The notes beneath the pieces were generated by a model. That model had not been told where the DNA came from. It saw nothing but the letters and a program-made list of their open reading frames with translations, and did not search any database. A stretch of 64,000 nucleotides of DNA from Candidatus Magasanikbacteria bacterium GW2011_GWC2_37_14. GTDB lineage: Bacteria > Patescibacteriota > Patescibacteriia > Magasanikbacterales > UBA922. The position numbers and the translations under genes are program-made. The stretch spans positions 441 to 64,440 of the forward strand of contig LBSX01000007.1 of assembly GCA_000990355.1 (NCBI GenBank). The letters are read 5' to 3'. This document shows, piece by piece, positions 6,127-62,865 of the stretch (positions are counted from its first letter, which is position 1; every line of letters starts with the position of its first letter).

Positions 6127-6205
6127 TTTTTCCCTCCCCTATAAGGGGAGGCCCCTCGTAGGGGGAGGAAAATAAAAAACTGCGATTTATATCGCAGTTT
6201 TTTAT
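6127..6205 (+). terminator. compound terminator: two GC-rich palindromes (ccctcccctataaggggagg; cccctcgtaggggg) followed by hairpin aaaaaactgcgatttatatcgcagtttttt
   Basis: Inverted repeats read directly after the clpP stop. The last hairpin has T/A runs on both sides and is bidirectional. Confidence 0.7.
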
Positions 6206-7257: not shown

Positions 7258-7285
7258 CACACCCTCCGAGCAAAAGGTTCGCCCA

Positions 7286-9724: not shown

Positions 9725-9752
9725 CGTATCCTCCGAACGAACGTGTGGTCTC

Positions 9753-9791: not shown

Positions 9792-9819
9792 AACCGGCAC
9801 AAAAACAACACCAAAATTA

Positions 9820-9868
9820 ACCAGCTTAAATGGCTGGATTAGCTAGGTTGTCAAAGAGCCGAGAAAAA
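9820..9868 (-). promoter_or_regulatory. upstream architecture copy B: hairpin ccagcttaaatggctgg plus box TTGTCAAAGAGCCGAGAAAAAA
   Basis: Paralogous to 7367-7413. The hairpin is followed on the coding strand by a U-rich tract, which is attenuator-like. Confidence 0.45.
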
Positions 9869-30947: not shown

Positions 30948-30988
30948 ATAATTGTCCTGTCATTCCCGCGCAGGCGGGAATCTAAAAA

Positions 30989-43300: not shown

Positions 43301-43365
43301 ATCCCTAATAATAAAATTATGGAAAAGAAAATATTTTTTATAATTTTATTTTTACTCCAAAACAT
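31378..43365 (-). CDS. giant (3995 aa) secreted/surface protein: N-terminal signal plus two-helix membrane hairpin, Big_5-like Ig domains, many Myxococcus-type cysteine-rich repeats (CGDGxVxxGEECD) and TSP3 repeats
   Basis: Single uninterrupted ORF. Motifs read directly: CGDGEVGAGEDCD, CGSGSVTLGEECD, CGDGIVAPGEECE, CGDGVLDAGQEECDDGN, and DNCPNNYNPLQNDIDGDGIGDACD. Confidence 0.85.
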   Translation of the reverse strand: MFWSKNKIIKNIFFSIILLLGMFLLFKTNVFAQDAFGLNRIGGSLDLPATDIRLIIAQIIRAILGLLGIIALGLMLYGGFVYMTSAGNEEKVGQARKILINAAIGIMIILSALAIAQFVINQLSDATGFGDGNGDNLSCRDLKYVLENRDECESVFCREFPTLCSCEDKHFVVQSITPKTTNTQMNNAVIRVTFSRKLQNMSSNEIKNYLTILRNNVTSTEEFSFEVLGRELADANSLIQATYIGETKCEDSTSCLPAGTYQVIVSPNIKDIDGYNLELKTSCGDFSAEAEFTVTTSAVKDSLAPILTPLVVEMVNKSGVREEIADDRLPVGSAYYFGTSESDESGAGYVGLTLNNGSFENLGERIYGYFNGPASTSDAPIDNPYNFSQRVFFPENLIVPQRISLTLRGNDIDSKFAEVTSTYMLVGAHCKDRIKNGNETGTDVGGSCGGGDGASCHDDLDCAYSFKCIDPVGAGNVNDKICRPFPLIENVEPMDGGAGNWVTILGRNFGSTKGKVSFGIDKNQDGEVSAGDWLDVNLADCGEGTNVWHDQWVIIEVPADIDLDRNFLSDIKLESAKTLTIAGESIKPSDDTAGLTTPEWGVMPGPNDGWFLKNDAIRPGLCAITPGEAESKAQVVIQGKGLGDTQSGSTMKFGGVQAIIVGAGWSDAVVRSFVPVLSAGKVGVVATVNGENSNGVPFEILSDGSVKTPIISSIDPVTTTPGSLITIYGSNFGSSGHVYLAGNSNDAKACAINYDSTKCKELTTVGLPPQCSENWQDTQVIVNIPKNIDTKFIGGKTVYKIVTESADLADIIGLNLGNSINTLAEAKVYNDTNGDYSLLNDTAIEFDIELDNLTTSSDVGFIESGDLWMKYRFLFFRNDGKEQVYINEQVKNDGIVKRYLFIHSAVFLDKSMRDYGANVALLNNSTNLYNLKIEIKDNKMNVYLSEGGNPLPIIPKIQLGLDPDLIKKESLPFRIGNIISSLDDNSRLFYGKINKLEFIHSTQVAEKTLDEVNLILKNNFNLASSGENTFGLMVGEPQPGICAIAPASGPAPLPAGKFLNLYGINFSDTPTVKFWSPNTSGGWLENSEAINAVGFAYSKSIDGEKIQTIIPYENGLTMETGAIKVQDKNNRIGNSVNYLVNDCRDSNTAMPGFQCCSEGAEAGKWKLSTLSCKGQPDSAGYVWRFTTGLIPHLPEVMEVCDQVNWSKGTVTVPFPTPVPWQNWEGGTNACLNASIAVRFNMPMKNNFVGKVTVYKCAEAKNGDIDCSDKEEVEVNGPIYNNPVLYIHDGTTNLVSNTWYHVELKDNIFSAERRETLGNFVEFNQPLKKTKPCSDGTAYCFDFKTGDGNCTLASAGIIPDNYVTHLLGVVQDFSHPQDLVNPFNPHPPAQPYFYYVWGRGSQKCSVLNVDGYGWNWQTDNESWVSSTISRGGSDPSDNKLTPRYIDSRAKIIAWSNTTPWNVKITATTNTLQNVTDDNLTTITGTSTLVVDLSDPKVISYWPNCEEACINAGIGAQFNQMMVTSTFADGLEFYMCGDELCSEDKLDEQNDLISIDESMSSYNTLRINVSDPYLVKNSWYLVRLTSEIKAIGAFKANGSIQVGNDLQAFAWKFRTKNDDTPCKAEKVEVVPNNFTSFLIGEKTKYLSLPKTKPDSCSPYGQDLNPWSFGWEWTADVTEVATISNFSTGDPLNSFCSPVCKPLGSDKKLIEVPTYCGDGEVGAGEDCDIDDPDTEAGCGYNCLHTGNNLTTTTVGINLGLCGDGFVSTALGEECDPGDMDQKNYCKSNNCTWKGSASTQPAGQVTVSWCGSGSVTLGEECDTKDTATKKGCSSNCLHIGTALSQAWCDEQAADEQTAADVPQACNNAISICGNDIVESGEECEIIDDVAKKIKVHNEGDTLFTTIQPANKVCNSSCLLQNLCNEDYDEENLDVSDLKCDTNEQWCRPDCTLRGSSPNYTQPSLCGDGETGSGEYGFCEVSLSGENLGENPVQVATAVGEGEVDPATDDQYTPINAKAISFTNANGDKVGLQTAEQKTGTGKYYLQCGYKEFETQAEYGDFAGWYNNCPGDADGAQEVNTFGVGKNSCCYYRPVRNTVYPIDGAGFEEGSEGVCLNTYLEATFNNEIDKQTVLDNIVLLKGTTSSTYNCANNNTIDRTAWANELMGIDALEQDTKLLGFLNNIWQKIKLFFVSLFTNDQAVATTITPASVVWCEGSVGVQSKVRYEEITVGNETFVNTTTIAIYINNLLEKDTEYAVILKGGNSGIKDVRGVGIRAKDGENNDQLDDVWLFKTGKDVCKINKVTVSPEKAWYKKANTSEFFDSFAESENGQIIVSLPPAYGWTWHWAPANNRVFAIPDSDNPLDATSDSVDIASRQVEGSLIAVAQAKVTHDLSLTNNQVGKIFTGRTELTAKFCERPWPEPETEDSWLPLKDNKYNFSLSYCADAGRSGTTTDDLPFMNLLPVIEKDTGTNIVVVPGQCAQNPSTSCTTDASCPPIVTATPGKCVHSPSTSCTTSADCPDYSVAQPGACSLKSNNQSTVCNVDTDCPTTDWYVLPGESSLYVSCSKYGGAYNFQYYKDKSCKFRHLVTESKYCTITGQYPPDYASTYRFCTDATGCNAGENCVPFDPIWKISGVVNTCVGAAPASLVADTCSGVGTSSVADQCTGGGEQVEEIMNPTLTDDTLRRYLLFSNINDDVIGIQIFQNPDRLSAYDWYTSPQRFPNTQNAKRVELAGFDAVQDGDNYYINALNLVTTTGHDYALWNNIYQISLNKGAQANTKKVLEQILGSLEFNINISDHKYCLNDGTLFDNQDNINDQFSCNTDFECRETNGNIKTNTSGICSNAKTKFFRDLRRLNDIAGMQNKLASYFTSNLNKVTFEGNLPGGTFIPGATLSLWPSWNNTLGAKVGTLPQDPVNAWTSCTDAGLGAEKQTCWYAPSSTVYCPVFSNIYEYNYVSSTKSYLLHSPLEFFALSSNIVEEKINTSTFTTTPWCNSETPFRAFGEKCGDGIVAPGEECEPPGKNELTAQTKIGGVLTACAGATKAARTCTNTCTWSYGACQADFTCGNGEKESAEFCDEGQLNGTYGHCAGENSVGVVACMGPHQAYCGNFHNIVYSSIDSLIDKDANNKPLELCDFTSTTPLAQNKASIRTGNWVFQGNCSETSVNVNGGLISGLGNWLNYANQYNLDKLVDINTLQSHIINFDLGLEDPLKIQCNLSSFPGLDCDGDEIINDLDNCPKNANSVMSSSCPAGQPFCLPSEMQLKKSNGPDSDGDGLGNACDYYPNCAENDVDKDEKCGTEDNCPNNYNPLQNDIDGDGIGDACDEVSVILMQALQDLNDANKTGWAKERNDICTDKIGYCALNTNFVCRTNDDCNINTQSINIDEGLSGYSNVNDFLNDVKTTSEYKGRCVPIIASYAKNKEYSCSWDCQKYGSYCGDGVLDAGQEECDDGNDVDTDKCQNNCKLKATVFCGDGLVNGSETCDDGMQCENKKPCTTDNTCAGIGKGKCLPRNGDGCSISCALESGQENYCGNGIVDENLKEACDMGAQNGLECTPEYGKGKICTWCSGDCKKVFTKETTDYCGNGKIDVIVSSTTPVFEKCDVKSDGTVVSSTYNPTTKVVGEANKSCNVNDKGNFSCENNCLDLQNNCINCAEMDRVDGGANPMIAILNPMIEQGFNWDSIYGVELVSLYRNYPNVLGYLYYFKQIKLNINENGVPTNYAYFYKSSSLITVEDVLPKGIETNLQCKDEYKVFFNENGLQTKVSGGGTANDFWKNGYGDIFDYPVNDESLRIENDVIMSPAVPTSTVRIVVKWTSEEENKLGGFVGDVIKTNSPTEWTHNRLPTTTFGTIIKNADEYWVPDGCTSLVCVHAKVHTPKIYVQSFTVDAGAGKDYVFTVSALTNFIGGPAKRSNLQVEVYTAHANQIPAYSIYKPTRTFSIRNASGTSSNARAKYWYVFKIRGNNTAPIIAPVDVDHADGVIRTDECDVKVSADVLESCPTT

Positions 43366-43377: not shown

Positions 43378-45549
43378 TTATTTGAAAATAACTGTTTGAG
43401 AAATATCTTCGGTTTTTAAAGCCGACAAACATTTAGCAACTGTGGAGGTAACTTGTAAATCAGTATCGGTTGTTTGTACACAACCAGTATCTTTGGCACT
43501 CGCTGTTTCTACACCTACACAATTTTCTGTTGACAGAATACTACCATCATCTTCGTTGTAAGTAACTATACAAGCAGTTGATTGTCCTTGTGCCCCTTGT
43601 ACCACCGGGCCTCTTCCTGGATAAACACAATTTTGTACCAAATTTTTTATTGTACTAGGGATAGAAGGAAAATAATACAAATCTGCATTGTTTGGCCCAA
43701 AAATTCGGTGGTCCAGTTTGGTAACAGTTTTTCCAGCAAAAGTTTCGGAAATTGGACAAAACCAAATTGGCTCTACACCATTTACCGCAACCGGATATTC
43801 GTCTAATTTTATTCCATAAACAGAGTCTAGCCACATCCGACTATTAAAATGTATTTTTAAAGGTGCATTGTCAGTTACATTCTCCTCATCAATATCTGGT
43901 TCCACAGTTTGGATATAAGGTGAGGTACGATCTATTTTATTTATAATATTAAAATTCCAATAAAAATTATCTGGATTTCTTTCATTATCATTAATTAAAA
44001 GTGGATTACTAATTGTCGGTTTATGCGGTGTAGCTAATCTACCTTGGTTATTGTCATCCAAAGCATTACTCGCCATATCCATTGCACCCGAAAAAGGCAT
44101 ACCCTCAAATGGTAATTGTGCCCCTGGCATTAAATCTGCCGTACGTACCAGTGCCTTAAAGGGTTTGGTACAATTTTCTGCGTTAGAGGGGCAATCCAAT
44201 GGCAAACAATACATAGTTTCGCCACAACTATTTTGTCCACAAGCCAAACTTGAAACAAATTCCAAAGTACGGTAACGATTGGATAATTTCCAATTACCCA
44301 AAGTAGTAGTTGGAGTAACTCCAAAATTAGTATTTAAAATAACATTGGCAAAACTAGTGGGGTCAGCAATTATTTGTCCTTGCACACCAGTAGGATCCAT
44401 GGCCTCACTAAAATTTATTTGGATAATAGAATTACGTGCCGGTGTATCTTTGCCTGTTTCATTGCCAGTGGGATAAGTATCTACTACATATGGTGGAGTA
44501 AAATCTATTTGAGTATTGGTCTGAAAATTCCATTCATAATCCTTACGGCCAATATTCTTGGAAAACACTCCAGGTGTATCTCCTGGGGCTGGTTCTTTGT
44601 ATAAAATATTATTGGTTAAACGCACACTATACCAAACATCAGTGGTTTCACTGCCAATAAAATCATAAGGTTTAAAAACAAAAGTACGAGTATTTTTTTG
44701 TGCACCATCTTCATAAATAGTAAGAGCACTAGCCGTTACCAATTGCCCACCATTGGCAGTAATACTACCAAGATTGGCAAAATAAGTGTCAGTTGCCATA
44801 AAAATACCAATTGTACTAGTATTCATGGCGTCACATTCTGTAAGCCTGTTAATTTTATTATCTTTATTAACATCCAAGCAATCACCATAATAAGGAATAG
44901 CAGGAACCGCTCCACCAAACTCACAAGTAGTGGTAGGTTTATTATCTCCACCCCAACAACTACTATTCGTATTTACAATAATCGAAGCTGGATCAATTGG
45001 CTCAAAAAAAGTAACAACTATTGAGGTATTGCGTGGCACAGCTGTTTGATCACGGAAAGGATAATGGTCTTTTACCACTTGGCCCAAAGCGCCACTACCA
45101 GCAAAAGTGTTAATAATTGGCACCCCAGCAGCACCACGCCCGTTGTTTTGATTGCCGTCCGAAAGCATGTTAATTATAAATTGAGCAATAGCAAAAGCCG
45201 ACAAAATTATTGCCAAGCCAATCACGGCATTGATCATAATTTTTTTGCCTTTTGACACTTCTTCTTCGTTGCCACCCGAAGTCATAATCACATAACCAGC
45301 ATACATCATTATTACCAAAGCAATAGTTCCCAGCAATCCAAAAATTGCTCGAATGATTTGAGCAATAATTATACGAATATCAGTTTTTACCAAACCAATA
45401 CTATTTTCTACTGGTTGCAAACCAAACAAGTCATTGTTTTGTGCCTGCGCTGGCAAAACTTGCCAAAACAAAAAAGCCACCACAAAAACTAACAGCCCAA
45501 GGATGGCGGCTTTTAACCAAGAATGATTTTTATTTATCCAAGGCAGCAT
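43378..45549 (-). CDS. 723-aa secreted protein sharing the N-terminal membrane-hairpin domain of the giant protein, with Big_5-like (..IQINFSEAMDPTG..) domains
   Basis: N-terminal residues 50-125 align residue-by-residue with the giant protein (IRIIIAQIIRAIFGLLGTIAL.. vs IRLIIAQIIRAILGLLGIIAL..). Confidence 0.8.
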   Translation of the reverse strand: MLPWINKNHSWLKAAILGLLVFVVAFLFWQVLPAQAQNNDLFGLQPVENSIGLVKTDIRIIIAQIIRAIFGLLGTIALVIMMYAGYVIMTSGGNEEEVSKGKKIMINAVIGLAIILSAFAIAQFIINMLSDGNQNNGRGAAGVPIINTFAGSGALGQVVKDHYPFRDQTAVPRNTSIVVTFFEPIDPASIIVNTNSSCWGGDNKPTTTCEFGGAVPAIPYYGDCLDVNKDNKINRLTECDAMNTSTIGIFMATDTYFANLGSITANGGQLVTASALTIYEDGAQKNTRTFVFKPYDFIGSETTDVWYSVRLTNNILYKEPAPGDTPGVFSKNIGRKDYEWNFQTNTQIDFTPPYVVDTYPTGNETGKDTPARNSIIQINFSEAMDPTGVQGQIIADPTSFANVILNTNFGVTPTTTLGNWKLSNRYRTLEFVSSLACGQNSCGETMYCLPLDCPSNAENCTKPFKALVRTADLMPGAQLPFEGMPFSGAMDMASNALDDNNQGRLATPHKPTISNPLLINDNERNPDNFYWNFNIINKIDRTSPYIQTVEPDIDEENVTDNAPLKIHFNSRMWLDSVYGIKLDEYPVAVNGVEPIWFCPISETFAGKTVTKLDHRIFGPNNADLYYFPSIPSTIKNLVQNCVYPGRGPVVQGAQGQSTACIVTYNEDDGSILSTENCVGVETASAKDTGCVQTTDTDLQVTSTVAKCLSALKTEDISQTVIFK

Positions 45550-48892: not shown

Positions 48893-48966
48893 TAGGCGTA
48901 TCCCGAATTGAACGGGAGACCTTTGCAATGTCAATGCAACGCTCTAACCAGCTGAGCTATACGCCC
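48893..48966 (-). tRNA. tRNA-Val (anticodon GAC); CCA not encoded
   Basis: GGGCGUAUAGCUCAGCUGGUUAGAGCGUUGCAUUGACAUUGCAAAGGUCUCCCGUUCAAUUCGGGAUACGCCUA forms a cloverleaf with a G1-U72 pair. Confidence 0.85.
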
Positions 48967-48974
48967 TTGGTTAA

Positions 48975-49175
48975 ACAACTGCCTGCCCGCCGTGTTTGCT
49001 GGTGCCACGGCGCCGAATGGCTTGCGGTATGAACCGAGAGGCGGGAGCATGAGTCCGATTATAGCAGAACTTTTTAATAAAATCAAGTGTACCAGAGTGA
49101 ATAAAAAAAATCAAGAAATCTTCCTACAAAAACACCCGCTTTTTACAGCAGGTGTTTTTCGTGATCCTCGGCCCA
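48975..49175 (+). ncRNA. candidate ~200-nt small RNA ending in a rho-independent terminator (aaacacccgctttttacagcaggtgttttt)
   Basis: GC-richer structured segment with stem cccgcc/ggcggg. Only a noise-like 74-aa ORF is present. The terminator hairpin plus T-tract at 49138-49172 was read directly. Identity unknown. Confidence 0.25.
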
Positions 49176-49520
49176 GGGTAGTGTCTATTCATACCCCTGA
49201 CGAAGCAGGTGGGTGATCGCACCTCTGGCCCACAGGCCAAAGAAATATTGATCTCCCTAGTATAAATATTTGCGGATATGAAATTCACTACCCAGCTCTA
49301 GGATCACTTATATTATATAAAATCAAAATACCGCTGTCAAGCTGAATTTTAAAAGTGCTTGCCCTATACCCTTGTGGTATAGGGTCAAATAATTTTCCGC
49401 CCGTAATAATTATTAATTCTAGTTACTAATTATTACGTGCGGGGGTAATGCATCACCTCCTTGACCCCTACACTTTTGCGAACGCGAATTCTTGCTCGGA
49501 CACCCGCCCTTGATGGACGA

Positions 49521-49722
49521 TTACTCTTCGCCGCGCCGCTCCTCGAAGAACAGTGCGATGGCGTTGTGGTCGCCCCTCCGCGTAAGACGACGGAGAAGAT
49601 CCCTCGAAGCGTCGGCAGGCACGTAGGCCACCAGAACCCCCTCCTGGGCCACGTTGTGCTGGCCCTGAACCACTGCGTCACCCGCAACCGTCGTCGTCAT
49701 CGTCCCCTCCTCATCGGCCATT
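49521..49722 (-). CDS. G+C-rich 66-aa hypothetical protein (MADEEGTMTTTVAGDAVVQGQHNVAQEGVLVAYVPADASRDLLRRLTRRGDHNAIALFFEERRGEE)
   Basis: GGAGG lies 7 nt upstream of the ATG. GC3 is almost all G/C. No recognised family. Confidence 0.4.
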
Positions 49723-49875
49723 TGTAGACCTCCTGCCCACGAATCCCTCCCGCGTCGTGGCCCTGTGCCAAAACGCGTAAGAAAAACCAAATTCTTGGTT
49801 GCTCTTGGCGCTTTGGCACAAAAAAATAATGCATTACCCATTTTTCTCCTTATTTTTTAAAGAACAATTAACAAA

Positions 49876-49900
49876 TAAAACACCCTGCTTTTATTTGCAG
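49876..49900 (-). terminator. hairpin caccctgc..gcagggtg downstream of ndk
   Basis: 8-bp stem with a flanking T-run. Confidence 0.5.
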
Positions 49901-50192
49901 GGTGTAAATTTATTTTTAGGTAATTTCTAACAACTACAACCACCTAAATATAACACCCCACAACTTGGTAACCATGCGTAATTTGCACGTACCAAAAGAC
50001 CACGGTCGCAAATGACGGAGTGTTTAATTAAATTTTTGTTAGAAAATGAATTCATACTAAATATATAGTATAACAATAAAAATATTTTGTAAACACACTT
50101 ATCCACAAAACAAAAGTCACCATTTCGCTGGTGACTTTATAAACTTTAAAACTTTATAACCTGCCTCGCCGGCAGGCAGGCTTTACAAACTC

Positions 50193-50672
50193 TTATACTC
50201 TCTCATCATCCATGTACACGTGTAAGTATTCGGTTTTGTTATAATCAAAAATTTCTTCGGCTTTAAAAAATCTATTTACTTCTGCTTCGGCAGTTTCTAC
50301 ACTATCGGAACAATGAACTACATTGCACATACCCATGGCCAAGTCGCCACGAATTGTACCACCATCGGCTTTGGCTGCATTGGTTACTCCGGCAATCAAA
50401 CGCACAGCTTCTACTGCTCCCTTACCTTCGGCACACATACAAACTACTGGACTAGATTTCATAAAAGCCTCAAGCCCAGGATAAAATGGTTTTTCTACAT
50501 GGTGAGCATAATGTTCACGAAGTTTATTTTCGTCCAAATACATCATTTTCAAACCCACAACTTTTAAACCTTTCATTTCTAGTCTTTTTAAGACTTCGCC
50601 AACCAAACCCCTTTGTACGCCATCGGGTTTTACAATTAAAACTGTTTTTTCAAAAATACCAGTAAAATTCAT
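50193..50672 (-). CDS. ndk: nucleoside diphosphate kinase
   Basis: It starts MNFTGIFEKTVLIVKPDGV and carries the active-site NVVHCSDS. Confidence 0.9.
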   Translation of the reverse strand: MNFTGIFEKTVLIVKPDGVQRGLVGEVLKRLEMKGLKVVGLKMMYLDENKLREHYAHHVEKPFYPGLEAFMKSSPVVCMCAEGKGAVEAVRLIAGVTNAAKADGGTIRGDLAMGMCNVVHCSDSVETAEAEVNRFFKAEEIFDYNKTEYLHVYMDDERV

Positions 50673-50825
50673 ATAAATAGCTAATTTAAGAGTAATTTTA
50701 GTGCATATATTATAGCACATTTTAAAGGTTTTGTCAATAGTGGATAAAAATCACCTTATTCTTGACAACAACTAAATATTACTGTTTAATATGATAGAAC
50801 CAACATCTCCAATGCGGGAGGGTCC

Positions 50826-50941
50826 ATGGCGGGAGGAGTCAAGAGCTCGAAGGGCCACAAGGCCAAGAGGAAGAAGGGCTGGACCAGGCACTCGAACGGC
50901 CCGAGCCGCGGAGGCTCGAACAACCGTAAGGGCGCCAAGTA
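50826..50941 (+). CDS. G+C-rich 38-aa Lys/Arg-rich peptide (MAGGVKSSKGHKAKRKKGWTRHSNGPSRGGSNNRKGAK)
   Basis: GGGAGGG lies 6 nt upstream of the ATG. It is followed by a 28-bp perfect-stem hairpin at 51040-51098 and a terminator at 51098-51128. Confidence 0.35.
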
Positions 50942-51097
50942 ACGCGACGTTCTTCGCGTCAAGCGCCCCTGGTCCACAACCAGGGCCACATTCTCAAGTC
51001 CGCTGCCGCCGCGGAGATTAACCAGGTTCGTTCTGTTCCTGCGTTGGTCTCCACAGCTAAAATATTTTTAGTTGTGGAGAACGCAGGAACAGCTAAA

Positions 51098-51128
51098 TAA
51101 AAACATCCGCCGATGAGGCGGATGTTTT
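51098..51128. terminator. bidirectional terminator aaaaacatccgccgatgaggcggatgttttt
   Basis: Perfect stem flanked by A5 and T5. It serves the 38-aa gene on plus and the 706-aa gene on minus. Confidence 0.7.
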
Positions 51129-51137
51129 TAAAAATTT

Positions 51138-53213
51138 TTAACTTCCTGCTGGTTTATTTATGGCTGATAATGCTTGTTCTATAACTGCTTCTCTTTTTAA
51201 TAATCCATGTTTCCCCCTGCCATCATCTCCACCTAAAATCTTTTGTGCTTCTAACAAACGATCCAGCAAATATTTCCGGTCACTTTCACTTCTTTTCAAT
51301 CTATCTTCCAAATCTTTATTAATTCCTTCCAAATTTTCACCATGAAATTTCACTTCACCTAATTCTTTTTTCATTCTTTCCACCGCCTTAGGCAATGTCT
51401 CGCCTGGTTCTGGTTTTATCACCGTTTCTAAGGAAACTAATAAAGCTTGTAATTCTGCTTTCTTTAAAACCTCTTTGGCAGCCACACCCTTGCCACGTTC
51501 CAAAGCTTCTTTACCAATTCTTTCCGCATCAGAAACTGTTAAAGCAACTTGTTGATCTGGGGTTTTACCCTTGTTTATTCTTTCACTCAAACGTTGTTTA
51601 AATTCTCGCAACTCTTCTTCTCTGGTCTGTGCCAAATCCGGAGTTTCATATAATGTGCCAGTCATTGTTCTGTTGCCACGCACATCCTTGATTAAATTAC
51701 GGTTAGTAGTCAAAATATATTGTTGAGTATTTTGGTCAAGAACAGAAACTTCCGCTTCTACAATAGCTTGTATTTTATTCAAAAACACCGCGTCTCTTTC
51801 TACAGCATTTTTAAATAACTCTTGGAGATATTCCCCAAGTCTAATTTCATTTCCACGTTCTTGAGGAAATTTTTCATCCAAAAAAAGTTCATAAGCTTTT
51901 CTTGTATTCACAGCATATACCCCACCAGTTTCAATTTGATTTTCAGTTGGAGGAAATTTTTCCAAGGCATCCCTAAAAGTCAAATAACGGGCCAAACCTT
52001 CCATGTTTGTTGTTGGTTTTGGTGCATGAGTATGTTCATCTGTGCTATCCTGTAAATTAGTCAGGGATATATCACTTAAAAATTTTGTTTGTAAAAAATT
52101 TAAAACAATATTTTTAACTGCCTCGGGTTTTAATTGAGAAAATTGACTCATGTCGCCAACGGCGTTAACAAAAGTATATTGTGAGTAGCCTGTTTCAGCA
52201 CTCTTATTTGCACCCAAACGAAAATTTCTTTGGCAATATTCCAAAATCTTACGTTTTTCTGCCTCATTCTCTGCACCGGGTAATTCTTCTTCCACAATTT
52301 CTTTTGTCTGCTCAAAAAAATCTTGCCAAAGCATTTCTTCCATTCTTAAACGTCTTTCATCATACAAAACTTCTCGCTCAAAAGCCGGTGACTTTATTGT
52401 AAGTTCAGCATTTTCAGAAGACAAACCTTGATGGAATATTCTTTTACCATCTGCCCCCAAAGTTTGGACTTGATAAACCGTTTCTGGATAAAAACCATAT
52501 TGCCCTTTATTTGCTCTATTTTTTTCTGTTGTTGCAACAGCATGTTCCAAGTTTTTTACTGTTTGTCTTTCTCTAGTTGTGTTAGCTTCAACCAACTTCG
52601 CACCTGCATAATCACAATAACCTTCATAAGTCTCTGGAACAAGATCAAAATTATTATAAGCCTCTTGTAATTGTGCTTGTTCTTCTGTTGTTAAAGCATT
52701 CTCGGCTCTTTTTTGTTCCAATAATTTTGTAACCAACTTGGCACAATATTCTCTAATTTTTGGTCTGGCTTCTTGCACCCTTTGGTGAATTTCCAACATT
52801 TCTCGCAAAACCCTGCCTTTTTCTTTTTCGGCTGTATCGCCAGCTTCGTATTCGGCAATTAAATCCTCTACACTCATATTTTCGGCACTAGCGTTTTCTT
52901 GTAAAATCTGTACACCTTCTTTTAAATCTTCTTCATCCTCAGAAGAAATATTATACAAAGCCGACATTTCTCTACCCACCTCGGTCTTAAATGATTCATC
53001 ACCAACAAACCCATTCAATTCTGTGGCCATTAAAGTTAAATAATTAACATCTAATTCATGTTCAGGACTAGTAGAAGCAAAAAATTCGCCCATTCTTTCT
53101 AGGTCATCTATTTGGCCAGCTACCGTTGCCCCTTGTCCTTTTTTCTCTTCTGCAGCTCTTTTAAAACCTCTTTGTTCACCAACTCCCGCTGCAACTTCTT
53201 TAAATCTACCCAT
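51138..53213 (-). CDS. hypothetical acidic, coiled-coil-rich protein (~690 aa)
   Basis: Long ORF with host-like composition, starting MGRFKEVAAG. No NTPase or other motif recognised. Confidence 0.55.
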   Translation of the reverse strand: MGRFKEVAAGVGEQRGFKRAAEEKKGQGATVAGQIDDLERMGEFFASTSPEHELDVNYLTLMATELNGFVGDESFKTEVGREMSALYNISSEDEEDLKEGVQILQENASAENMSVEDLIAEYEAGDTAEKEKGRVLREMLEIHQRVQEARPKIREYCAKLVTKLLEQKRAENALTTEEQAQLQEAYNNFDLVPETYEGYCDYAGAKLVEANTTRERQTVKNLEHAVATTEKNRANKGQYGFYPETVYQVQTLGADGKRIFHQGLSSENAELTIKSPAFEREVLYDERRLRMEEMLWQDFFEQTKEIVEEELPGAENEAEKRKILEYCQRNFRLGANKSAETGYSQYTFVNAVGDMSQFSQLKPEAVKNIVLNFLQTKFLSDISLTNLQDSTDEHTHAPKPTTNMEGLARYLTFRDALEKFPPTENQIETGGVYAVNTRKAYELFLDEKFPQERGNEIRLGEYLQELFKNAVERDAVFLNKIQAIVEAEVSVLDQNTQQYILTTNRNLIKDVRGNRTMTGTLYETPDLAQTREEELREFKQRLSERINKGKTPDQQVALTVSDAERIGKEALERGKGVAAKEVLKKAELQALLVSLETVIKPEPGETLPKAVERMKKELGEVKFHGENLEGINKDLEDRLKRSESDRKYLLDRLLEAQKILGGDDGRGKHGLLKREAVIEQALSAINKPAGS

Positions 53214-53271
53214 ATATTTAAAATTAAAATTATTTATATAATAAATATAGTATAGCAAAACCTATTTTTTT

Positions 53272-55620
53272 CTACAACTCATCCAAGTCTTTTAAAAAGC
53301 TTACCACATTATTTCGTACTTTCGCACTATTCGTAATTTGCACATCATTGTCATCCTCACTCACATATTCTATTTCATCTTGTCCTGAGCTTGCCGAAGG
53401 GTCGTCGCCAAACACTGTTCCGCCATTCATTTCACTCTTACCCGCCTGCCATGACTTACCGACAGACATGTCGGGCAGGTCCAATAACTCATTATTTAAT
53501 TCTTCCAAAAACAAACTTGGAGTAGCCAGTACGTCGCCCCAACCACTAGTGAGTGAATAGGTAAGCTGTAAATATTTTTTAGCCCGAGTTACTGCCACAT
53601 AAAACAAACGTCGTTCTTCTTCCAAGCCTCCATTTTCCCGCAAAGCCCGGTCATTGGGGAATTGGCCATTGGTTAAGCCAATAATAAAAACTGCTTCCCA
53701 TTCCAACCCTTTGGCTTGGTGAATGGTAGACAAAACAACTTTGTCGCCACCTCGCTGTAGAGACGCAAAATTTTGCGTCTCTACGTTTGTGTCAACCCGC
53801 CGAAACGACTCTTGTAAAGTTGCCTCTGCTAAAAATGTGTTTAAATCCGGTTGTTGTTTGGCAAACCCAGCTAATTGTTGTAAATCTTCCATTCGTTCGC
53901 GATAATCTGGATATTCATTTTCCAAATATTCAATATATTTTGATTCCAAAATTTGTAAAATTAAATCACTTGGTTTCCCTCCTGCTGATTTCCCTCCCCT
54001 TGTAGCCTTCGCCGTGAGCTCAGGCCGAACGGGGGAGGGTGGGGTGGGGTCTGCATCAACAACTAACATTAATTTCTCATAAATCTGTAAAAAATCATTC
54101 CAGCCTATTTGCGCTTTGGCAGATAATGTAGCTCCTATCTCTCGTAAGTTCCCTCCCCTATGAGGGGAGGGTGGGGTGGGGTTTGTCTCGTCCGAAACCC
54201 CCTCCTCTCCTCCCCCTTGTAGGGGGAGGGACATAATTTTTTCAATAATACGTTCAGCACTCACCGCCCCAATCCCCACTTGCATATTTAATACTCTTCG
54301 CCAAGCCACGTTATCTTCAATATTATTAATAATTCGCAAATATGCCAAAGCATCTTTAATATGCGCCCGTTCAAAAAACCGCACTCCACCACGATAATCA
54401 TAATCAATCCCCCGCTTTACTAATTCCATTTCCAAAGCTTGGCTGTGATAAGCTGCTCTAAACAACACGGCAATTTTACTTGGCTCCACTCCTTCGCTCT
54501 CTAATTCAAAAATACGATTAGCAATATATTCTGCTTCTTCTTTTTGATCGGCAAAAGCTTGCAATTCTGGCTTGGCAAATTTTTCTTTTATGCTTTTTAA
54601 CTTTTTTTCGTATTGATTTAAATTATTACTAATTACATTGTTTGCTAAATCCAAAATATTGGGTGTAGAACGATAATTAGTTTCGAGCTTAAATACTTTT
54701 GCATCTGGGTATCTGCCCTCTCCGCCAAAAGCGGATCCGTCTTTGGCAGAGAATGATAAAATATTTTGAATATCCGCCGCACGAAAAGAATAAATACTTT
54801 GGGCATCATCACCCACTACCAATAAATTTTTGTGCTTTGATGCCAACAAATCAATAATCGAAGCTTGAATTTTATTGGTGTCTTGATATTCATCTACCAA
54901 AATATATTGAAATTGTTCGGCTAACTTATTTTTTATTCCTTGTTCCTTTACCAAGAGCAAATACCAATTCACCAACAAATCATCAAAATCCATCGCATTA
55001 GCTTCTTGTTTGCGTTTGGCATAATCCTCAGCAATGCGCACAATTGTTTCCGATACCGACAAAAAATGTTCATATTTTAAATCCAAGACATCTTCAATGG
55101 TCATTTCACTATTCCTAGCATAAGAAATAATTGATTGTAATACAGCTGGCGAAGGAAATCTTTTTTCTGTGCGATCAATTCCCTCTTGTTTTAAACACAA
55201 TTTAATTAAAGCCAAACTATCTTCACTATCCAAAACAGAAAAATTATTTTTATAGCCTAAAAGCAAAGCATATTTTTTTAGCAATCGATAACCAATATGA
55301 TGAAACGTCCCCGACCACTGCAGGTGTGTCCCCCTCTTGACCTCGAGGGGACCAGGGGGAGTTGCCGAGGTTAAGTCTGAATCAACTAAATTCATCACCC
55401 TCTCAATCATTTCTTTGGCCGCCTTGTTGGTAAAAGTTACTAACAAAATATTTTCTGGTTTTATACCCTGTTCCAGCAAATACGCCACGCGATAAGTAAT
55501 GGTGCGGGTCTTGCCACTACCTGCTCCGGCCAATACCAAACATGGGCCATCGCCCTCATACACAACTTTTAATTGTTCGACATTTAATTCTTTTTTAAAA
55601 TCAATCATATTAGTCGTCAT
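53272..55620 (-). CDS. UvrD/PcrA-family ATP-dependent DNA helicase carrying multiple in-frame GC-rich palindromic insertions
   Basis: Motifs I GAGSGKTRTIT, Ia TFTNKAAKEM, II DEYQDTN, III GDDAQSIYSFRAAD, V/VI VLSTIHQAKGLEWEAVFIIGL and RRLFYVAVTRAKKYLQL. Extra Pro/Gly-rich segments (e.g. DLTSATPPGPLEVKRGTHLQ, NPTPPSPHRGGN, DPTPPSPVRPELTAKATRGGKSAGGKP, VETQNFASLQ, SASSGQDE) coincide with palindromes. Confidence 0.9.
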   Translation of the reverse strand: MTTNMIDFKKELNVEQLKVVYEGDGPCLVLAGAGSGKTRTITYRVAYLLEQGIKPENILLVTFTNKAAKEMIERVMNLVDSDLTSATPPGPLEVKRGTHLQWSGTFHHIGYRLLKKYALLLGYKNNFSVLDSEDSLALIKLCLKQEGIDRTEKRFPSPAVLQSIISYARNSEMTIEDVLDLKYEHFLSVSETIVRIAEDYAKRKQEANAMDFDDLLVNWYLLLVKEQGIKNKLAEQFQYILVDEYQDTNKIQASIIDLLASKHKNLLVVGDDAQSIYSFRAADIQNILSFSAKDGSAFGGEGRYPDAKVFKLETNYRSTPNILDLANNVISNNLNQYEKKLKSIKEKFAKPELQAFADQKEEAEYIANRIFELESEGVEPSKIAVLFRAAYHSQALEMELVKRGIDYDYRGGVRFFERAHIKDALAYLRIINNIEDNVAWRRVLNMQVGIGAVSAERIIEKIMSLPLQGGGEEGVSDETNPTPPSPHRGGNLREIGATLSAKAQIGWNDFLQIYEKLMLVVDADPTPPSPVRPELTAKATRGGKSAGGKPSDLILQILESKYIEYLENEYPDYRERMEDLQQLAGFAKQQPDLNTFLAEATLQESFRRVDTNVETQNFASLQRGGDKVVLSTIHQAKGLEWEAVFIIGLTNGQFPNDRALRENGGLEEERRLFYVAVTRAKKYLQLTYSLTSGWGDVLATPSLFLEELNNELLDLPDMSVGKSWQAGKSEMNGGTVFGDDPSASSGQDEIEYVSEDDNDVQITNSAKVRNNVVSFLKDLDEL
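53757..53784. repeat. palindromic element, family GTAGAGACGCA...TGCGTCTCTAC (copy inside the helicase CDS)
   Basis: gtagagacgcaaaattttgcgtctctac. A second copy, gtagagacgcattgcaatgcgtctctac, is intergenic at 61055-61082. Confidence 0.7.
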
Positions 55621-56480
55621 TCTACCACCAAAATTACCTTGCGTCCATTTTTTACATCACCATTATTCCAATCATGAATAGCATTCATTAAATCTTGATA
55701 TTTATATTTAAAATCTTTGCCAAACTGTGTGCCTGGATCATTGGTAATAAAATTTTCTTCATCATAACCTTTAATAATCAATGCATGGTAAATTGGTCCA
55801 CCATTCCGAAAATTTGGATTAGGTAACACTTTACCGTTCGCTACTACCAACACTGGTTTATTATTTGCAATAAATTTTTTTATATCATCAACAGTTGGAT
55901 TTTCAATAATTTTAATTTGTCCTACTAAATTTAAATGAAAATATTCCTCTGTCATTTGTTTGATATCAACAATTGGGATACTTAACCCCCAGCCCTTATC
56001 CTCTTCCCATTTTACCATTTTCAAAATTTCATCACGCGAAAAAATAGGGCTTAAATTATAACCTTTATAATAGGCATCAAGCATAAGTAAAGCCGCTTCT
56101 TCACACGCATCTTGCCACGGCTGTTCCCAATTTTTTTCTGGCGCTTGTGAGGTAAATGGAACATTCAAAATAAATTCTTTTGGGAGTATTGTGCTGTCAT
56201 TCCCTACTTCGGTACCAGATGTCGAGCTTGCCTGCCGAGGAGGCAGGGAATCCCTTGCTTCTGTAATTTTGACCGTGCTTGTAATGCTTTCAGGTGTTAA
56301 TGCTTTAATGTCTTCACTGCTATCTGTTATCTGTTGTTTGCTATCTGAAGATACTGTTTCATAATTAATTATTATCTCATCATTCACAAACATTTTTCCA
56401 AAAATATAAATCGTCCCTACCAAAAAACACCCGCTCAAAATCAGGCAAATTGTGTTTAATATTGTATATTTTGACTTCAT
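55617..56480 (-). CDS. C39-like (papain-fold) peptidase domain protein with N-terminal membrane anchor
   Basis: VPFTSQAPEKNW...DACEEAALLM (catalytic Cys) and ...IYHALIIKGYD (His). An in-frame palindromic insert lies in the linker. Confidence 0.65.
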   Translation of the reverse strand: MKSKYTILNTICLILSGCFLVGTIYIFGKMFVNDEIIINYETVSSDSKQQITDSSEDIKALTPESITSTVKITEARDSLPPRQASSTSGTEVGNDSTILPKEFILNVPFTSQAPEKNWEQPWQDACEEAALLMLDAYYKGYNLSPIFSRDEILKMVKWEEDKGWGLSIPIVDIKQMTEEYFHLNLVGQIKIIENPTVDDIKKFIANNKPVLVVANGKVLPNPNFRNGGPIYHALIIKGYDEENFITNDPGTQFGKDFKYKYQDLMNAIHDWNNGDVKNGRKVILVVE

Positions 56481-57229: not shown

Positions 57230-58450
<1,221 letters not shown>

Positions 58451-61041: not shown

Positions 61042-61201
61042 TGTCGTCACTCACGTAGAGACGCATTGCAATGCGTCTCTACAATAGTTGTCATCCTGAA
61101 CTGGTTTCAGGATCTTTCATAAATTTAAGCATTTTAGTAAATCTGACTAACGGAAAGATACTGAAATAAATTCAGCATGACACACAAAACAAAAACCGGG
61201 T

Positions 61202-61492: not shown

Positions 61493-61591
61493 ATATTTTA
61501 AATTAATTGCCTGCCTGCCGATGAGGTAGGGCCTAAATTAGCCAATATTTATTTAAATACCTATATATTATAGCACAAAAATCGCCTTTTG

Positions 61592-62821
61592 TCAATAGAT
61601 AAACATCGCATCACCAAAACTAAAAAACCGATATTTTTCTTTTACTGCCTGCCTGTAACACTCCAACATAAACTCTTTACCACTGCCAGGAGCACTCTTG
61701 TCCGCTGTAGCTTCAGCGAAGGCGGAGACCAACATTAGTAAAGTTGACTTAGGTAAATGAAAATTTGTAATCATGGCATCCACTATTTTAAATTCAAATC
61801 CTGGTTTAATAAAAATATTTATATCACCATGATAGGGCCTAAGTGTCATTGCGAGCCCTGCTCGAGCAGGGCGTGACAATCCCCCAGTTTTATCTTTAAC
61901 CATTGGGATTGCTTCGTCGCCTATGTCGGCTCCTCGCAATGACAAACTCGCAATCCCTTCCAACGTCCTCACTGTTGTCGTACCAACCGCCACCACTCGC
62001 CGACCTTCGGCTTTGGCACGATTAATTTTTTCAGCATTTTCTTCACTAAGTTCAATCCATTCACTATGCATGGTATGGTCTTCCACTTTTTCTGATTTTA
62101 CTGGCAAAAAAGTTCCCAATCCCACATGCAAAGTTACTTCGGCAAATTCCACACCTTTATTTTTAAGTTTTTCAATTAAAGAATCAGTAAAATGAAAACC
62201 CGCAGTTGGTGCTGCCACTGAACCTTCGGGTTTTGCATAAACTGTTTGGTATGTTTCTAATTCATGTGGCTCATCTTTTACATAAGGTGGCACAGGAATG
62301 TGACCATATTTATTGGCTTTAGCTCGTACAATATCGGCGTTATCGGGAAATTGCACCAAAATTGTTCCATCATTTTCTTTAACCAAGGCATCACAATAAA
62401 AATCAGGAGTTTGCCCTGAGCTTGTCGAAGGGGCAAACACCACTCGCATCCCCTCTCGTAAATGTCGCCCTGGCTTAGCCAATACTTTCCACACTCCTTG
62501 ATTTTCCATTTCACGAATTAAAAAAATTTCTATTTCTTTTTTGTGTTCCAATAATTCTTGATTATTTTCTGCTTCCACTAATTTACCAAATAACCGAGCT
62601 TTAAAAACTTTGGAATTATTCCAAACCAACAAATCACCGGGTTTTAAATAATCTATAATATCATAAAAATGCTTGCCCTGAGCGGAATGAAATGAAGCCG
62701 AAGGGTTTTCTTTAATTTTTTTTCTATCAACAACAAACAAACGCGAACTATCGCGTGGCGCAAGTGGATACTGAGCAATTAATTCTAATGGGAGGTTGTA
62801 GTCAAAATCAGTTGTTAGCAT
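61592..62821 (-). CDS. queA: S-adenosylmethionine:tRNA ribosyltransferase-isomerase with two in-frame palindromic insertions
   Basis: MLTTDFDYNLPLELIAQYPL, VAVGTTTVRTLE and FMLECYRQAV. Inserts read APSTSSGQTP (at 62409-62437) and ...TGGLSRPARAGLAMTL... (at 61854-61892). Confidence 0.9.
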   Translation of the reverse strand: MLTTDFDYNLPLELIAQYPLAPRDSSRLFVVDRKKIKENPSASFHSAQGKHFYDIIDYLKPGDLLVWNNSKVFKARLFGKLVEAENNQELLEHKKEIEIFLIREMENQGVWKVLAKPGRHLREGMRVVFAPSTSSGQTPDFYCDALVKENDGTILVQFPDNADIVRAKANKYGHIPVPPYVKDEPHELETYQTVYAKPEGSVAAPTAGFHFTDSLIEKLKNKGVEFAEVTLHVGLGTFLPVKSEKVEDHTMHSEWIELSEENAEKINRAKAEGRRVVAVGTTTVRTLEGIASLSLRGADIGDEAIPMVKDKTGGLSRPARAGLAMTLRPYHGDINIFIKPGFEFKIVDAMITNFHLPKSTLLMLVSAFAEATADKSAPGSGKEFMLECYRQAVKEKYRFFSFGDAMFIY

Positions 62822-62865
62822 AAAATTTCACTGTCATCCTCGCGCAGGCGGGGATCCAGAAATAA

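What the first reader, a model, noticed from the sequence alone, without database searches (positions are those of the whole stretch)
53272..55620. UvrD/PcrA-like helicase riddled with in-frame GC-rich palindromic insertions
At least five G+C-rich palindromes lie inside the helicase coding sequence: 55328-55352, 54151-54229 (two copies), 53993-54049, 53757-53784 and 53389-53408. Each coincides with an extra Pro/Gly/Ser-rich peptide segment between conserved helicase motifs (for example DLTSATPPGPLEVKRGTHLQ between motif Ia and GTFHHIG, and VETQNFASLQRGGD just before motif V/VI). The same cores recur in intergenic DNA and in other genes, so these are mobile or amplified elements that inserted without breaking the frame. 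That is the behaviour known for Rickettsia palindromic elements; I am not aware of it being described for this kind of genome.
Basis: partly seen in the sequence, partly recalled or inferred. Interest (0 to 1): 0.85.

Follow-up and report, generated by a model that had tools for sequence, protein, structure and literature searches.

The report
Helicase gene peppered with tiny palindromes
A DNA-repair helicase gene of an uncultured, small-genome groundwater bacterium (Candidatus Magasanikbacteria) carries seven short, mostly G+C-rich repeat insertions, most of them palindromic, that keep the reading frame and add about 96 floppy amino acids; this kind of "selfish DNA inside genes" is known from other bacteria but I found no report of it for this group.

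Summary
ORF 53272-55620 (-) is a 782-aa UvrD/PcrA helicase of Candidatus Magasanikbacteria GW2011_GWC2_37_14. Its syntenic orthologs are about 670-700 aa. Seven lineage-specific segments are 57-69% G+C, except segment E at 41%; the rest of the gene is 37%. They total 96 aa, 45% Pro+Gly+Ser. Five fold as palindromes; two (55330-55365 and 53383-53400) are degenerate or half copies.

The cores fall into at least six families. These recur in the window between genes, often just 3' of genes, and inside tgt, queA and a C39 peptidase gene. They are 10-40 times denser in 185 kb of Magasanikbacteria DNA than in 1.2 Mb of control DNA.

Mobility is supported. Different families occupy the same site in different orthologs, and the same element sits at different sites. 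One element is nested inside another. Copies are read in different frames, and presence is patchy on the ortholog tree. AlphaFold places every insert in low-confidence coil.

The best match is REP/REPIN-like palindromic repeats inserted in-frame. These are already reported in DNA-repair genes, including UvrD/REP helicases, of other phyla. What is new is the host group and the density. The mobilising enzyme is unknown.

The parts
53272..55620 (-). UvrD/PcrA-type helicase gene, 782 aa. The true start is probably Met5 at 55608, as in the orthologs.
55330..55365 (-). Insert A, aa 86-97 (ATPPGPLEVKRG). A degenerate palindrome (55329-55360) between motif Ia and GTFHH, at the 1A/1B domain junction of PcrA. 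This site is a hot spot that carries F1, F2 or F5 elements in other orthologs.
   Evidence: (I10)
54721..54750 (-). Insert B, aa 291-300 (SAKDGSAFGG). An exact 30-nt insertion of a double TCCGCCnnnGGCGGA element (family F6); the imperfect palindrome spans 54719-54752. The same element sits at the same codon junction in L084 as a perfect 30-nt palindrome. Not in the original finding.
   Evidence: (I2)
54148..54233 (-). Insert C, about aa 463-490 (SLPLQGGGEEGVSDETNPTPPSPHRGGN). A REPIN-like doublet of two F1 hairpins (54151-54171 and 54209-54229) in inverted orientation, with pairing tails. About 90% identical over 62 nt to an element at a different site of the L082 helicase.
   Evidence: (D2, I3)
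53977..54051 (-). Insert D, aa 524-548 (DPTPPSPVRPELTAKATRGGKSAGG). An F1 element with an ACCCCACCCC tail whose loop holds a nested F3-like core (54004-54030). It shares a 19-nt exact direct repeat, GGGGAGGGTGGGGTGGGGT, with insert C (54032-50 = 54164-82).
53757..53784 (-). Insert E (VETQNFASL). A perfect 28-nt palindrome of family F2, GTAGAGACG-N10-CGTCTCTAC, just before motif V. F2 lies at the same site in L083, L087 and P0028.
   Evidence: (I5)
53440..53478 (-). Insert F, aa 715-727 (LPDMSVGKSWQAG). A 39-nt insertion with CTGCCC...GGCAGG outer pairing (F5-like), unique to this protein. Not in the original finding.
53383..53400 (-). Insert G, aa 741-746 (PSASSG). The core of family F3 (CCTGAGCTTGCCGAAGG), not itself palindromic. 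The full hairpin version lies in queA at 62406-62441.
61055..61082 (.). Intergenic F2 copy, a perfect 28-nt palindrome 14 nt downstream of the Vut_1 gene, between convergent genes.
62406..62441 (-). F3 hairpin inside queA (PSTSSGQT), a lineage-specific indel.
61855..61872 (-). 18-nt perfect palindrome GCCCTGCTCGAGCAGGGC inside queA, within a lineage-specific 22-aa segment.
58255..58277 (+). F1 hairpin inside tgt ([10 protein letters not shown]), a lineage-specific indel.
56228..56250 (-). F5 hairpin inside the Peptidase_C39_2 gene (RDSLPPR), a lineage-specific indel.
6132..6173 (.). Two adjacent F1 hairpins, 8 nt downstream of clpP (intergenic).
15655..15687 (.). Intergenic F1 hairpin with a C-rich tail.
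50158..50182 (.). Intergenic F5 hairpin, 11 nt downstream of ndk.
61509..61536 (.). Intergenic F5-like hairpin downstream of queA.
30962..30981 (.). Intergenic F4 hairpin ATTCCCGCGCAGGCGGGAAT.
62836..62855 (.). Intergenic F4 hairpin between yceG and queA.
51098..51130 (.). F6-like hairpin (TCCGCC-GATGA-GGCGGA) flanked by A and T runs. A bidirectional intrinsic-terminator-like site 3' of ORF 51138-53258.

Best explanation
The helicase gene has been colonised repeatedly by short REP/REPIN-like palindromic repeat elements that are dispersed through Magasanikbacteria genomes. There are at least six sequence families. Units are 15-45 nt, and some are paired into roughly 85-nt doublets.

In intergenic DNA the elements sit mostly just 3' of genes, like REPs or terminator stems. 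Copies also land inside genes. Only some of those persist: the ones that add a multiple of three bases, carry no stop codon in the frame used, and fall in tolerant loops, domain junctions or the C-terminal tail. G+C-rich sequence rarely contains stops.

Persisting copies are translated into Pro/Gly/Ser-rich disordered loops and then decay by point mutation. That decay would explain the gradient from perfect palindromes (E, C, B) to barely recognisable ones (A, G).

Shown: the elements are repeats, they are lineage-specific insertions, they occur at varying sites and in different frames, and they lie in predicted coil. Inferred: translation, tolerance by the enzyme, and the copying mechanism. 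The most likely mechanism is a single-strand hairpin intermediate handled by a HUH/RAYT-type transposase or by host replication and repair. No such gene was seen in the window.
For: - Indels: seven G+C-rich segments are absent from most of 21 syntenic orthologs and from PcrA.
- Repeats: the cores recur in the window above chance. The six families are 10-40 times denser in 185 kb of Magasanikbacteria DNA than in 1.2 Mb of other phyla.
- Both locations: copies occur between genes and inside tgt, queA, yceG and the C39 peptidase gene as lineage-specific indels.
- Same module at different sites: NPTPPSPxRGG is at site A in P0002 and P0010 and at sites C and D here. A 62-nt composite is about 90% identical between site C here and site D of L082.
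- Different families at one site: site A holds F1, F2 or F5 in different orthologs.
- Nesting: an F3-like core sits inside an F1 loop at site D.
- Frames: F1 and F3 are read in different frames and orientations. Among 50 F2 copies in ORFs of at least 200 aa, only the two stop-free frames are used, 30 and 20 times.
- Patchy phylogeny: insert B lies at the same codon junction in three clades whose sister lineages lack it.
- Structure: AlphaFold low-confidence coil segments 83-96, 272-302, 468-486, 529-545, 608-624 and 717-774 coincide with all the inserts.
- Composition: Pro+Gly+Ser is 45% in the inserts against 13% elsewhere, and there are almost no stops in any frame.
- Precedent: intragenic REPs, often dimers encoding 20-30 aa, occur in repair genes including UvrD/REP helicases (PMC3733652).
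Against: - No transposase or RAYT was found among about 30 window ORFs scanned with Pfam, and the rest of the genome was not available.
- No target-site duplication flanks 130 F2 copies, so the insertion chemistry is unknown.
- A 28-nt unit is not a multiple of three, and how the frame is restored was not resolved.
- There is no strain-level presence/absence polymorphism. The nearest ortholog is only 66% identical by BLASTP, or 74% in the MAFFT alignment.
- Translation of the inserts is inferred from frame conservation only.
- The AlphaFold model is mediocre (mean pLDDT 68, pTM 0.42, 22-sequence alignment). Lineage-specific inserts would score low anyway.
- Enrichment in this gene relative to its neighbours is partly an ascertainment effect, because the families were defined from this gene.
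Confidence: 0.8

Rival explanations
1. The hairpins are kept because they act as nucleic-acid signals inside the gene. Possible roles are antisense-transcription terminators, mRNA stabilisers or pause sites, or binding sites for a dimeric protein. On this reading the peptide is a by-product.
For: - F2 copies are exactly 28 nt in 107 of 135 cases. In 69 of 135 they are perfect palindromes whose inner 10-mers differ but stay self-complementary. That points to a constraint on symmetry, not on the peptide.
- Intergenic copies sit just 3' of genes, also in phage contigs.
- Two helicase hairpins score as terminator-like on the antisense (+) strand.
Against: - The elements are absent from most orthologs and are replaced by unrelated families at the same sites, so no site-specific function is conserved.
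- None is followed by a U-run on the sense strand.
- The degenerate copies A and G show no maintenance.
- Perfect symmetry can also come from recent insertion or from the copying mechanism.
Confidence: 0.1
2. The extra segments arose locally, by slippage or template switching, or by selection for flexible Pro/Gly linkers. The sequence similarity among sites would then be convergence.
For: - The segments lie in loops that vary in length in all UvrD-family proteins.
- Low-complexity C- and G-runs are prone to slippage.
Against: - The 62-nt composite is about 90% identical at different sites of two orthologs.
- Identical 28-nt F2 sequences occur in unrelated metagenome contigs.
- The same cores occur in non-coding DNA and in different frames.
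- The G+C contrast between inserts and the rest of the gene is sharp.
Confidence: 0.04
3. The inserts are not part of the mature protein. They would be removed from the mRNA or skipped by the ribosome, like the byp elements of Magnusiomyces mitochondria or T4 gene 60.
For: - They are short G+C-rich hairpin inserts in an A+T-rich genome, which resembles mitochondrial byps and GC clusters (general knowledge; PMC8811140 for GC clusters).
Against: - All seven inserts keep the frame and lack in-frame stops. The chance of seven unconstrained inserts all keeping the frame is about (1/3)^7.
- F2 copies in 50 long ORFs avoid the one frame that reads TAG. Skipped sequence would not need to do that.
Confidence: 0.03
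4. Assembly or sequencing artefact in a metagenome-assembled genome.
For: - The window is a MAG contig and contains kb-scale G+C-rich islands.
Against: - The same families occur at orthologous and non-orthologous sites in independent assemblies from JGI, ENA, NCBI and Logan.
- The frame is always preserved.
Confidence: 0.02

Closest known systems
REP / REPIN elements (repetitive extragenic palindromes and their doublets), including intragenic REPs (Di Nocera et al. 2013, PMC3733652; Bertels & Rainey 2011, PMC3116915)
   Same: - They are 20-40-nt G+C-rich stem-loops in several families per genome.
- They lie preferentially just 3' of genes.
- Doublets in inverted orientation form a larger hairpin, as insert C does.
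- In-frame copies inside genes encode 7-30 aa, notably in DNA-repair genes including UvrD/REP helicases.
   Different: - No unpaired GTAG or CGTC tag was identified. F2 has GTAG and CGTC, but both lie inside the stem.
- No RAYT was seen.
- The host is a CPR bacterium with an A+T-rich, reduced genome.
- Roughly half the copies in this window are inside genes.
- One gene carries seven inserts from at least five families, against one or two per gene in the published tables.
Rickettsia palindromic elements (RPE; Ogata et al. 2000, as cited in PMC3733652 and PMC1779305)
   Same: - Palindromic selfish repeats are inserted in-frame in essential genes of a reduced genome.
- The encoded peptides are thought to sit on the protein surface.
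   Different: - By my recollection RPE-1 is roughly 100-150 bp. Here single units are 15-45 nt and only the doublet C reaches about 85 nt.
- The sequence families are unrelated as far as was seen, and the phylum is different.
- Di Nocera classes RPE-4 and RPE-6 as CGTC-type REPs, so the two categories overlap.
Small dispersed repeats (SDR) of cyanobacteria (Elhai et al. 2008, Genome Res 18:1484; cited in PMC3116915; paper not readable here, content from memory)
   Same: - Very small (about 21-27 nt) dispersed units, some of them hairpins.
- They are found inside genes and nested in one another.
- Mobility was inferred from comparison of orthologous loci.
   Different: - They were described for heterocyst-forming cyanobacteria.
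- Sequence identity to F1-F6 was not tested.
GC clusters of yeast mitochondrial DNA (review PMC8811140)
   Same: - Short G+C-rich palindromes spread through a very A+T-rich genome.
- They nest within each other and can occur in-frame in a coding gene (var1, from memory).
   Different: - The genome is an organelle genome and the sequences are unrelated.
- This is an analogy only.

Membership tests
UvrD/PcrA/Rep superfamily-1A helicase (the host gene) | N-terminal UvrD-helicase and C-terminal UvrD_C domains with the conserved motifs in order | tested here: met
   Pfam PF00580 at 9e-81 and PF13361 at 7e-64. PcrA 1pjr at E 2.6e-97, with motifs aligned on both sides of every insert.
REP / REPIN | Short (about 20-40 nt) imperfect palindrome forming a G+C-rich stem-loop | tested here: met
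   Stems are 8-14 bp with 60-78% G+C. z-scores range from -2.1 to -6.5 for B, C, E and F.
REP / REPIN | Many dispersed copies per genome falling into sequence families | tested here: inconclusive
   About 20 family copies were found in 64 kb, and recurrence was seen in 7 related loci. The whole genome was not available, so copy number per genome is unknown.
REP / REPIN | Unpaired GTAG or CGTC tetranucleotide tag at one end | tested here: not met
   F2 starts with GTAG and contains CGTC, but both are base-paired within the palindrome. F1 carries a C-rich tail (ACCCCACCCC) instead. F3-F6 show no such tag.
REP / REPIN | Predominantly extragenic, close to the 3' ends of genes | tested here: inconclusive
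   Intergenic copies are 8-14 nt downstream of clpP, ndk and Vut_1. Roughly half of the copies in the window are intragenic.
REP / REPIN | Cognate RAYT (HUH Y1 transposase) gene flanked by REPs | not testable with these tools
   No Y1_Tnp hit among about 30 window ORFs. The remainder of the genome could not be scanned.
REP / REPIN | Doublets of inverted units forming a larger hairpin (REPIN) | tested here: met
   Insert C has two F1 hairpins in inverted orientation with 76% complementary arms (54164-84 and 54195-215). Fold -51.7 kcal/mol, z = -3.8.
Rickettsia palindromic elements (RPE) | Element length of the order of 100-150 bp (RPE-1) with palindromic termini | tested here: not met
   Units here are 15-45 nt and the largest composite is about 85 nt. 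The RPE length is from memory.
Rickettsia palindromic elements (RPE) | In-frame insertion in functional genes at surface-exposed positions | tested here: met
   The frame is intact through seven inserts. All lie in predicted coil or low-pLDDT loops.
Rickettsia palindromic elements (RPE) | Sequence similarity to RPE consensus sequences | not tested
   No RPE sequences were compared.
MITE | Terminal inverted repeats plus target-site duplication, 70-300 bp | tested here: not met
   No direct-repeat flanks above chance for 130 F2 copies. The units are far shorter.

The most novel reading that the evidence does not exclude
The 28-nt element at 53757-53784 belongs to a palindrome family of exact length (GTAGAGACG-N10-CGTCTCTAC). 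The family is spread across bacteria of very different G+C content, Bacteroidota-type secreted proteins, CPR genomes and phage contigs. Its centre changes but stays self-complementary, it has no target duplication, and it enters real genes only in the stop-free frames. This would be a pan-bacterial nano-element copied by a mechanism that regenerates perfect dyad symmetry, for example fold-back synthesis from a single-strand hairpin. It might travel on phages and need no dedicated transposase in the host. Together with the other families it would be a major, overlooked source of the lineage-specific loops seen in proteins of reduced CPR genomes.
Probability: 0.2. Interest if true: 0.7.

Novelty: new member of a known kind. 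Interest (0 to 1): 0.5.

Why it matters
- CPR/Patescibacteria genomes are small and are usually treated as streamlined. If they are seeded with REP-like elements that enter essential genes, part of the "CPR-specific insertions" and length variation in their proteins is selfish DNA rather than adaptation.
- That affects protein-family clustering, structure prediction and phylogenetic marker alignments. Here tgt, queA, yceG and uvrD all vary in this way.
- It gives a second example, independent of Rickettsia, that genome reduction and intragenic palindromes can go together.
- It provides a natural map of insertion-tolerant sites in a UvrD/PcrA helicase.
- The repeated link between such elements and DNA-repair helicase genes, noted in PMC3733652, remains unexplained and could now be tested in a new lineage.

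Tried and rejected
- Searching genome contigs with the helicase alignment used universal motifs and returned 80 distant UvrD loci from other phyla. These were useless as orthologs and were reused only as control DNA. The single scan of that collection was thereby spent.
- DNA could not be fetched for P0019 and P0003.
- G+C-island calling and a repeated-11-mer census were too noisy. Ordinary G+C-rich codon runs and the kb-scale G+C-rich islands dominated. The match of CCCCCTCTTGAC at 10016 turned out to be a promoter -35 region, not an element copy.
- Target-site duplications for F2 were looked for and not found.
- Pairs of F2 copies spaced 1857 nt apart in several viral contigs suggested a bounded mobile unit. 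They simply flank a phage capsid gene in related phages.
- A full-text search for GTAGAGACG returned only primer sequences. Elhai 2008 could not be read.
- Rfam found only tRNAs at gathering threshold.
- A second Pfam batch failed on a coordinate error and was not repeated.
Full report
**What the locus is.** The window is a chromosomal contig of Candidatus Magasanikbacteria bacterium GW2011_GWC2_37_14, a member of the candidate phyla radiation. The helicase protein is 100% identical to the NCBI record of that name. Background G+C is about 35%. ORF 53272-55620 on the minus strand is intact and 782 aa long. It matches Pfam UvrD-helicase (9e-81) and UvrD_C (7e-64) and aligns to PcrA 1pjr at E 2.6e-97. 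Gene order around it is Peptidase_C39_2, then the helicase, then (sometimes one or two genes further on) ndk. Further out lie tgt, Vut_1, queA and yceG. This order is shared with the loci of its best homologs, so those are true orthologs. Most orthologs are 665-705 aa, and insert-free ones are 670-672 aa.

**Checking the observation.** I aligned the protein to 21 orthologs. I also made a codon-aware alignment to seven orthologs whose DNA I could fetch. Together they isolate seven internal segments present here but absent from most orthologs:
- A: aa 86-97
- B: aa 291-300
- C: aa 466-486
- D: aa 524-548
- E: aa 613-621
- F: aa 715-727
- G: aa 741-746

These total 96 aa. One search counted 106 aa over all segments gapped in at least four of seven orthologs, a count that also includes the 4-aa N-terminal extension and a 9-aa A+T-rich C-terminal stretch. 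Insert G+C is 57-69% (E, the AT-centred palindrome, 41%), against 36.8% for the rest of the gene. Pro+Gly+Ser make up 45% of the insert residues against 13% elsewhere.

Five segments are palindromic and fold better than shuffled controls: E (z = -6.5), C (z = -3.8), B (z = -3.4), F (z = -2.1), and D only weakly (z = -1.3). A (+0.5) and G (+0.9) are not significantly structured. One (55328-55352) is a decayed palindrome. One (53389-53408) is a repeated core rather than a palindrome. Two real inserts, B and F, were overlooked. The cores recur in the window well above chance.

**The elements form families found in and between genes.** From the helicase and the window I defined six families:
- F1: CCTCCCC..GGGGAGG, often preceded by an ACCCCACCCC tail
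- F2: GTAGAGACG-N10-CGTCTCTAC
- F3: CCTGAGCTTGYCGAAGG
- F4: TTCCCGCGCAGGCGGGAA
- F5: CCTGCC..GGCAGG
- F6: TCCGCCnnnGGCGGA

In 185 kb of Magasanikbacteria DNA (the window plus seven ortholog loci) they occur at 1-7 copies per 100 kb each. That is 10-40 times their density in 1.2 Mb of DNA from other phyla for five families and about fivefold for F4. Intergenic copies sit 8-14 nt downstream of clpP, ndk and Vut_1, or between co-directional genes. An F6-like hairpin forms a textbook bidirectional terminator at 51098-51130. Intragenic copies are not confined to the helicase. In this window tgt (58255-58277), queA (62406-62441 and 61855-61872) and the C39 peptidase gene (56228-56250) carry them. 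In each case they coincide with a lineage-specific indel. Orthologs of tgt, queA, yceG and C39 in the other loci carry their own inserts, up to 65 aa in one tgt.

**Evidence that the elements moved.**
- *Same element, different sites.* The module NPTPPSPxRGG is at site A in P0002 and P0010 and at sites C and D here. Sites C and D share a 19-nt exact repeat. A 62-nt composite is about 90% identical between site C here and site D of the L082 helicase, although the two proteins are only 55% identical by BLASTP (68% in the MAFFT alignment).
- *Same site, different elements.* Site A holds F1, F2 or F5 in different orthologs. Site E holds F2 here and in L083, L087 and P0028, but two F1-like units in L085.
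- *Nesting.* Insert D is an F1 element whose loop carries an F3-like core.
- *Frames.* F1 is read as PSPHRGG, SLPLQGGG or PPLKREG, and F3 as PSTSSG, LRQAQ or PELTAKA. The unit is therefore DNA, not a peptide module.
- *Patchy phylogeny.* On a neighbour-joining tree of 635 gap-free columns, insert B (an exact 30-nt insertion between the same two codons) is present here and in P0020, and as a remnant in P0009. These are three separate clades whose sister lineages lack it. This means either recurrent gain at one spot or repeated precise loss.

**The 28-nt family reaches far beyond this lineage.** Of 135 copies, 107 are exactly 28 nt. Sixty-nine are perfect palindromes whose inner 10-mers differ (CGATTAATCG, TTGCATGCAA, CAAAATTTTG and others) yet stay self-complementary. 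By chance an inner 10-mer would do so about once in a thousand.

There is no target-site duplication. Ten percent of copies are nested in larger palindromes, against 0.4% expected. Fifty copies lie in ORFs of at least 200 aa, and all use one of the two frames that avoid the TAG in GTAG: 30 read VET..SL and 20 read RD..VST. Host genes include ClpB, SecA, a family-2 glycosidase, an MmeI-type enzyme and Por_Secre_tail proteins. The family is equally common in viral contigs, where it sits 3' of capsid and protease genes.

**Where the inserts sit in the protein.** AlphaFold2 on the 22-sequence alignment gave a modest model (mean pLDDT 68, pTM 0.42). The low-confidence coil segments 83-96, 272-302, 468-486, 529-545, 608-624 and 717-774 coincide with all seven inserts; 313-333 is also below 50 but holds no insert.

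I mapped positions onto PcrA using the alignment. The domain limits are from my knowledge of the PcrA structures, not from a tool result.
- A lies at the 1A/1B junction.
- B lies between motifs III and IV.
- C and D lie in the variable 2B domain.
- E lies at the 2B/2A junction, just before motif V.
- F and G lie in the C-terminal tail.

None of the hairpins is followed by a U-run on the sense strand. The inserts contain almost no stop codons in any of the six frames. That is an automatic consequence of G+C richness, and it explains why such elements can survive in coding DNA.

**Most likely mechanism.** Dispersed REP/REPIN-like hairpin elements are copied to new places. Intergenic copies near 3' ends are neutral or useful as terminator or stabiliser stems. 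Intragenic copies survive only if they add 3n bases, are stop-free in the frame used, and fall in tolerant loops. They are then translated as flexible Pro/Gly/Ser-rich loops and decay.

The repeat nature, insertion polymorphism, site and frame variability and loop location are shown. Translation, tolerance and the copying enzyme are inferred. No transposase was found in the window, and the rest of the genome could not be searched.

**Comparison with what is known.**
- *REPs and REPINs.* Di Nocera et al. (PMC3733652) describe 20-40-bp tagged REPs in more than 80 species. [quoted passage not shown] Their table lists UvrD/REP helicase genes of Rhodopseudomonas palustris and Kosmotoga olearia. REPINs are inverted REP doublets (PMC3116915), and insert C has that architecture.
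- *Rickettsia RPEs.* These show the same behaviour, but by my recollection RPE-1 is several-fold longer.
- *Cyanobacterial SDRs.* Elhai 2008 could not be read here, so this comparison is from memory.
- *Yeast mitochondrial GC clusters.* See PMC8811140. These are an analogue only.
- *CPR literature.* Three full-text searches found nothing for CPR or Patescibacteria.

**Verdict.** What is new is the host group, the number of families, and the load on one gene: seven inserts from at least five families, 12% of the protein. The open points are the mobilising machinery, how 28-nt units end up in frame, and why repair helicase genes are hit so often.

Noticed in passing
window 6200-9820: A kb-scale island of 50-58% G+C in a 35% G+C contig. 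It encodes two secreted-looking repeat proteins: 6397-7440(-) with TSP_3 repeats and 7625-9814(-) with Dicty_CTDC Cys-rich repeats. They share a 26-nt exact repeat near their 5' ends (7286-7311 and 9754-9779). Possibly foreign DNA or a mis-join.
   Followed up: partly
window 13500-15700 and 48900-51100: Two further G+C-rich stretches with little or no Pfam-annotated coding. They contain tRNA-Asp, tRNA-Ile and tRNA-Val, and several strong hairpins (50902-51015). Their nature is otherwise unexplained.
   Followed up: partly
window 49159-49308 (-): Sub-threshold match to 6S RNA (35.9 bits against a gathering score of 46.4; E 4e-5 for the 2.3-kb search). Possibly a divergent CPR 6S RNA.
   Followed up: partly
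window 10016-10295 (+): A consensus sigma-70 promoter (CTTGACA, 17 nt, TATAAT) is followed about 220 nt later by a strong hairpin plus T-run (10265-10295). There is no ORF and no Rfam hit. This is a candidate unannotated small RNA.
   Followed up: partly
L212 559-586 and 2416-2443, and other IMG/VR loci L208-L287: The 28-nt GTAGAGACG-N10-CGTCTCTAC palindrome is common in viral contigs. In L212 it sits just 3' of the major capsid and prohead protease genes. A recurring 1857-nt spacing in several contigs reflects related phages, not a bounded mobile unit.
   Followed up: partly
L084 3372-3400 and 10814-10843: The same double TCCGCCCAAGGCGGA element occurs in two genes (yceG and the helicase) of one other Magasanikbacteria genome. 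In the helicase it is a perfect 30-nt palindrome.
   Followed up: yes
L082 7644-9050 (tgt ortholog): This tgt gene carries a 65-aa block made of four F1 hairpins plus an F5 hairpin, making the protein 468 aa against 384 aa in insert-free orthologs. The load on the helicase here is therefore not unique.
   Followed up: yes
window 31378-43365 (-): A 3995-aa ORF lies next to a T4SS_pilin/Big_5 protein (43378-45549). Its counterparts in related loci are 4654-5275 aa. It holds few palindromic elements despite its size.
   Followed up: no
window 55609-55620: The annotated ORF starts four codons (MTTN) upstream of the Met at which almost all aligned orthologs begin, so the true start is probably 55608.
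   Followed up: partly
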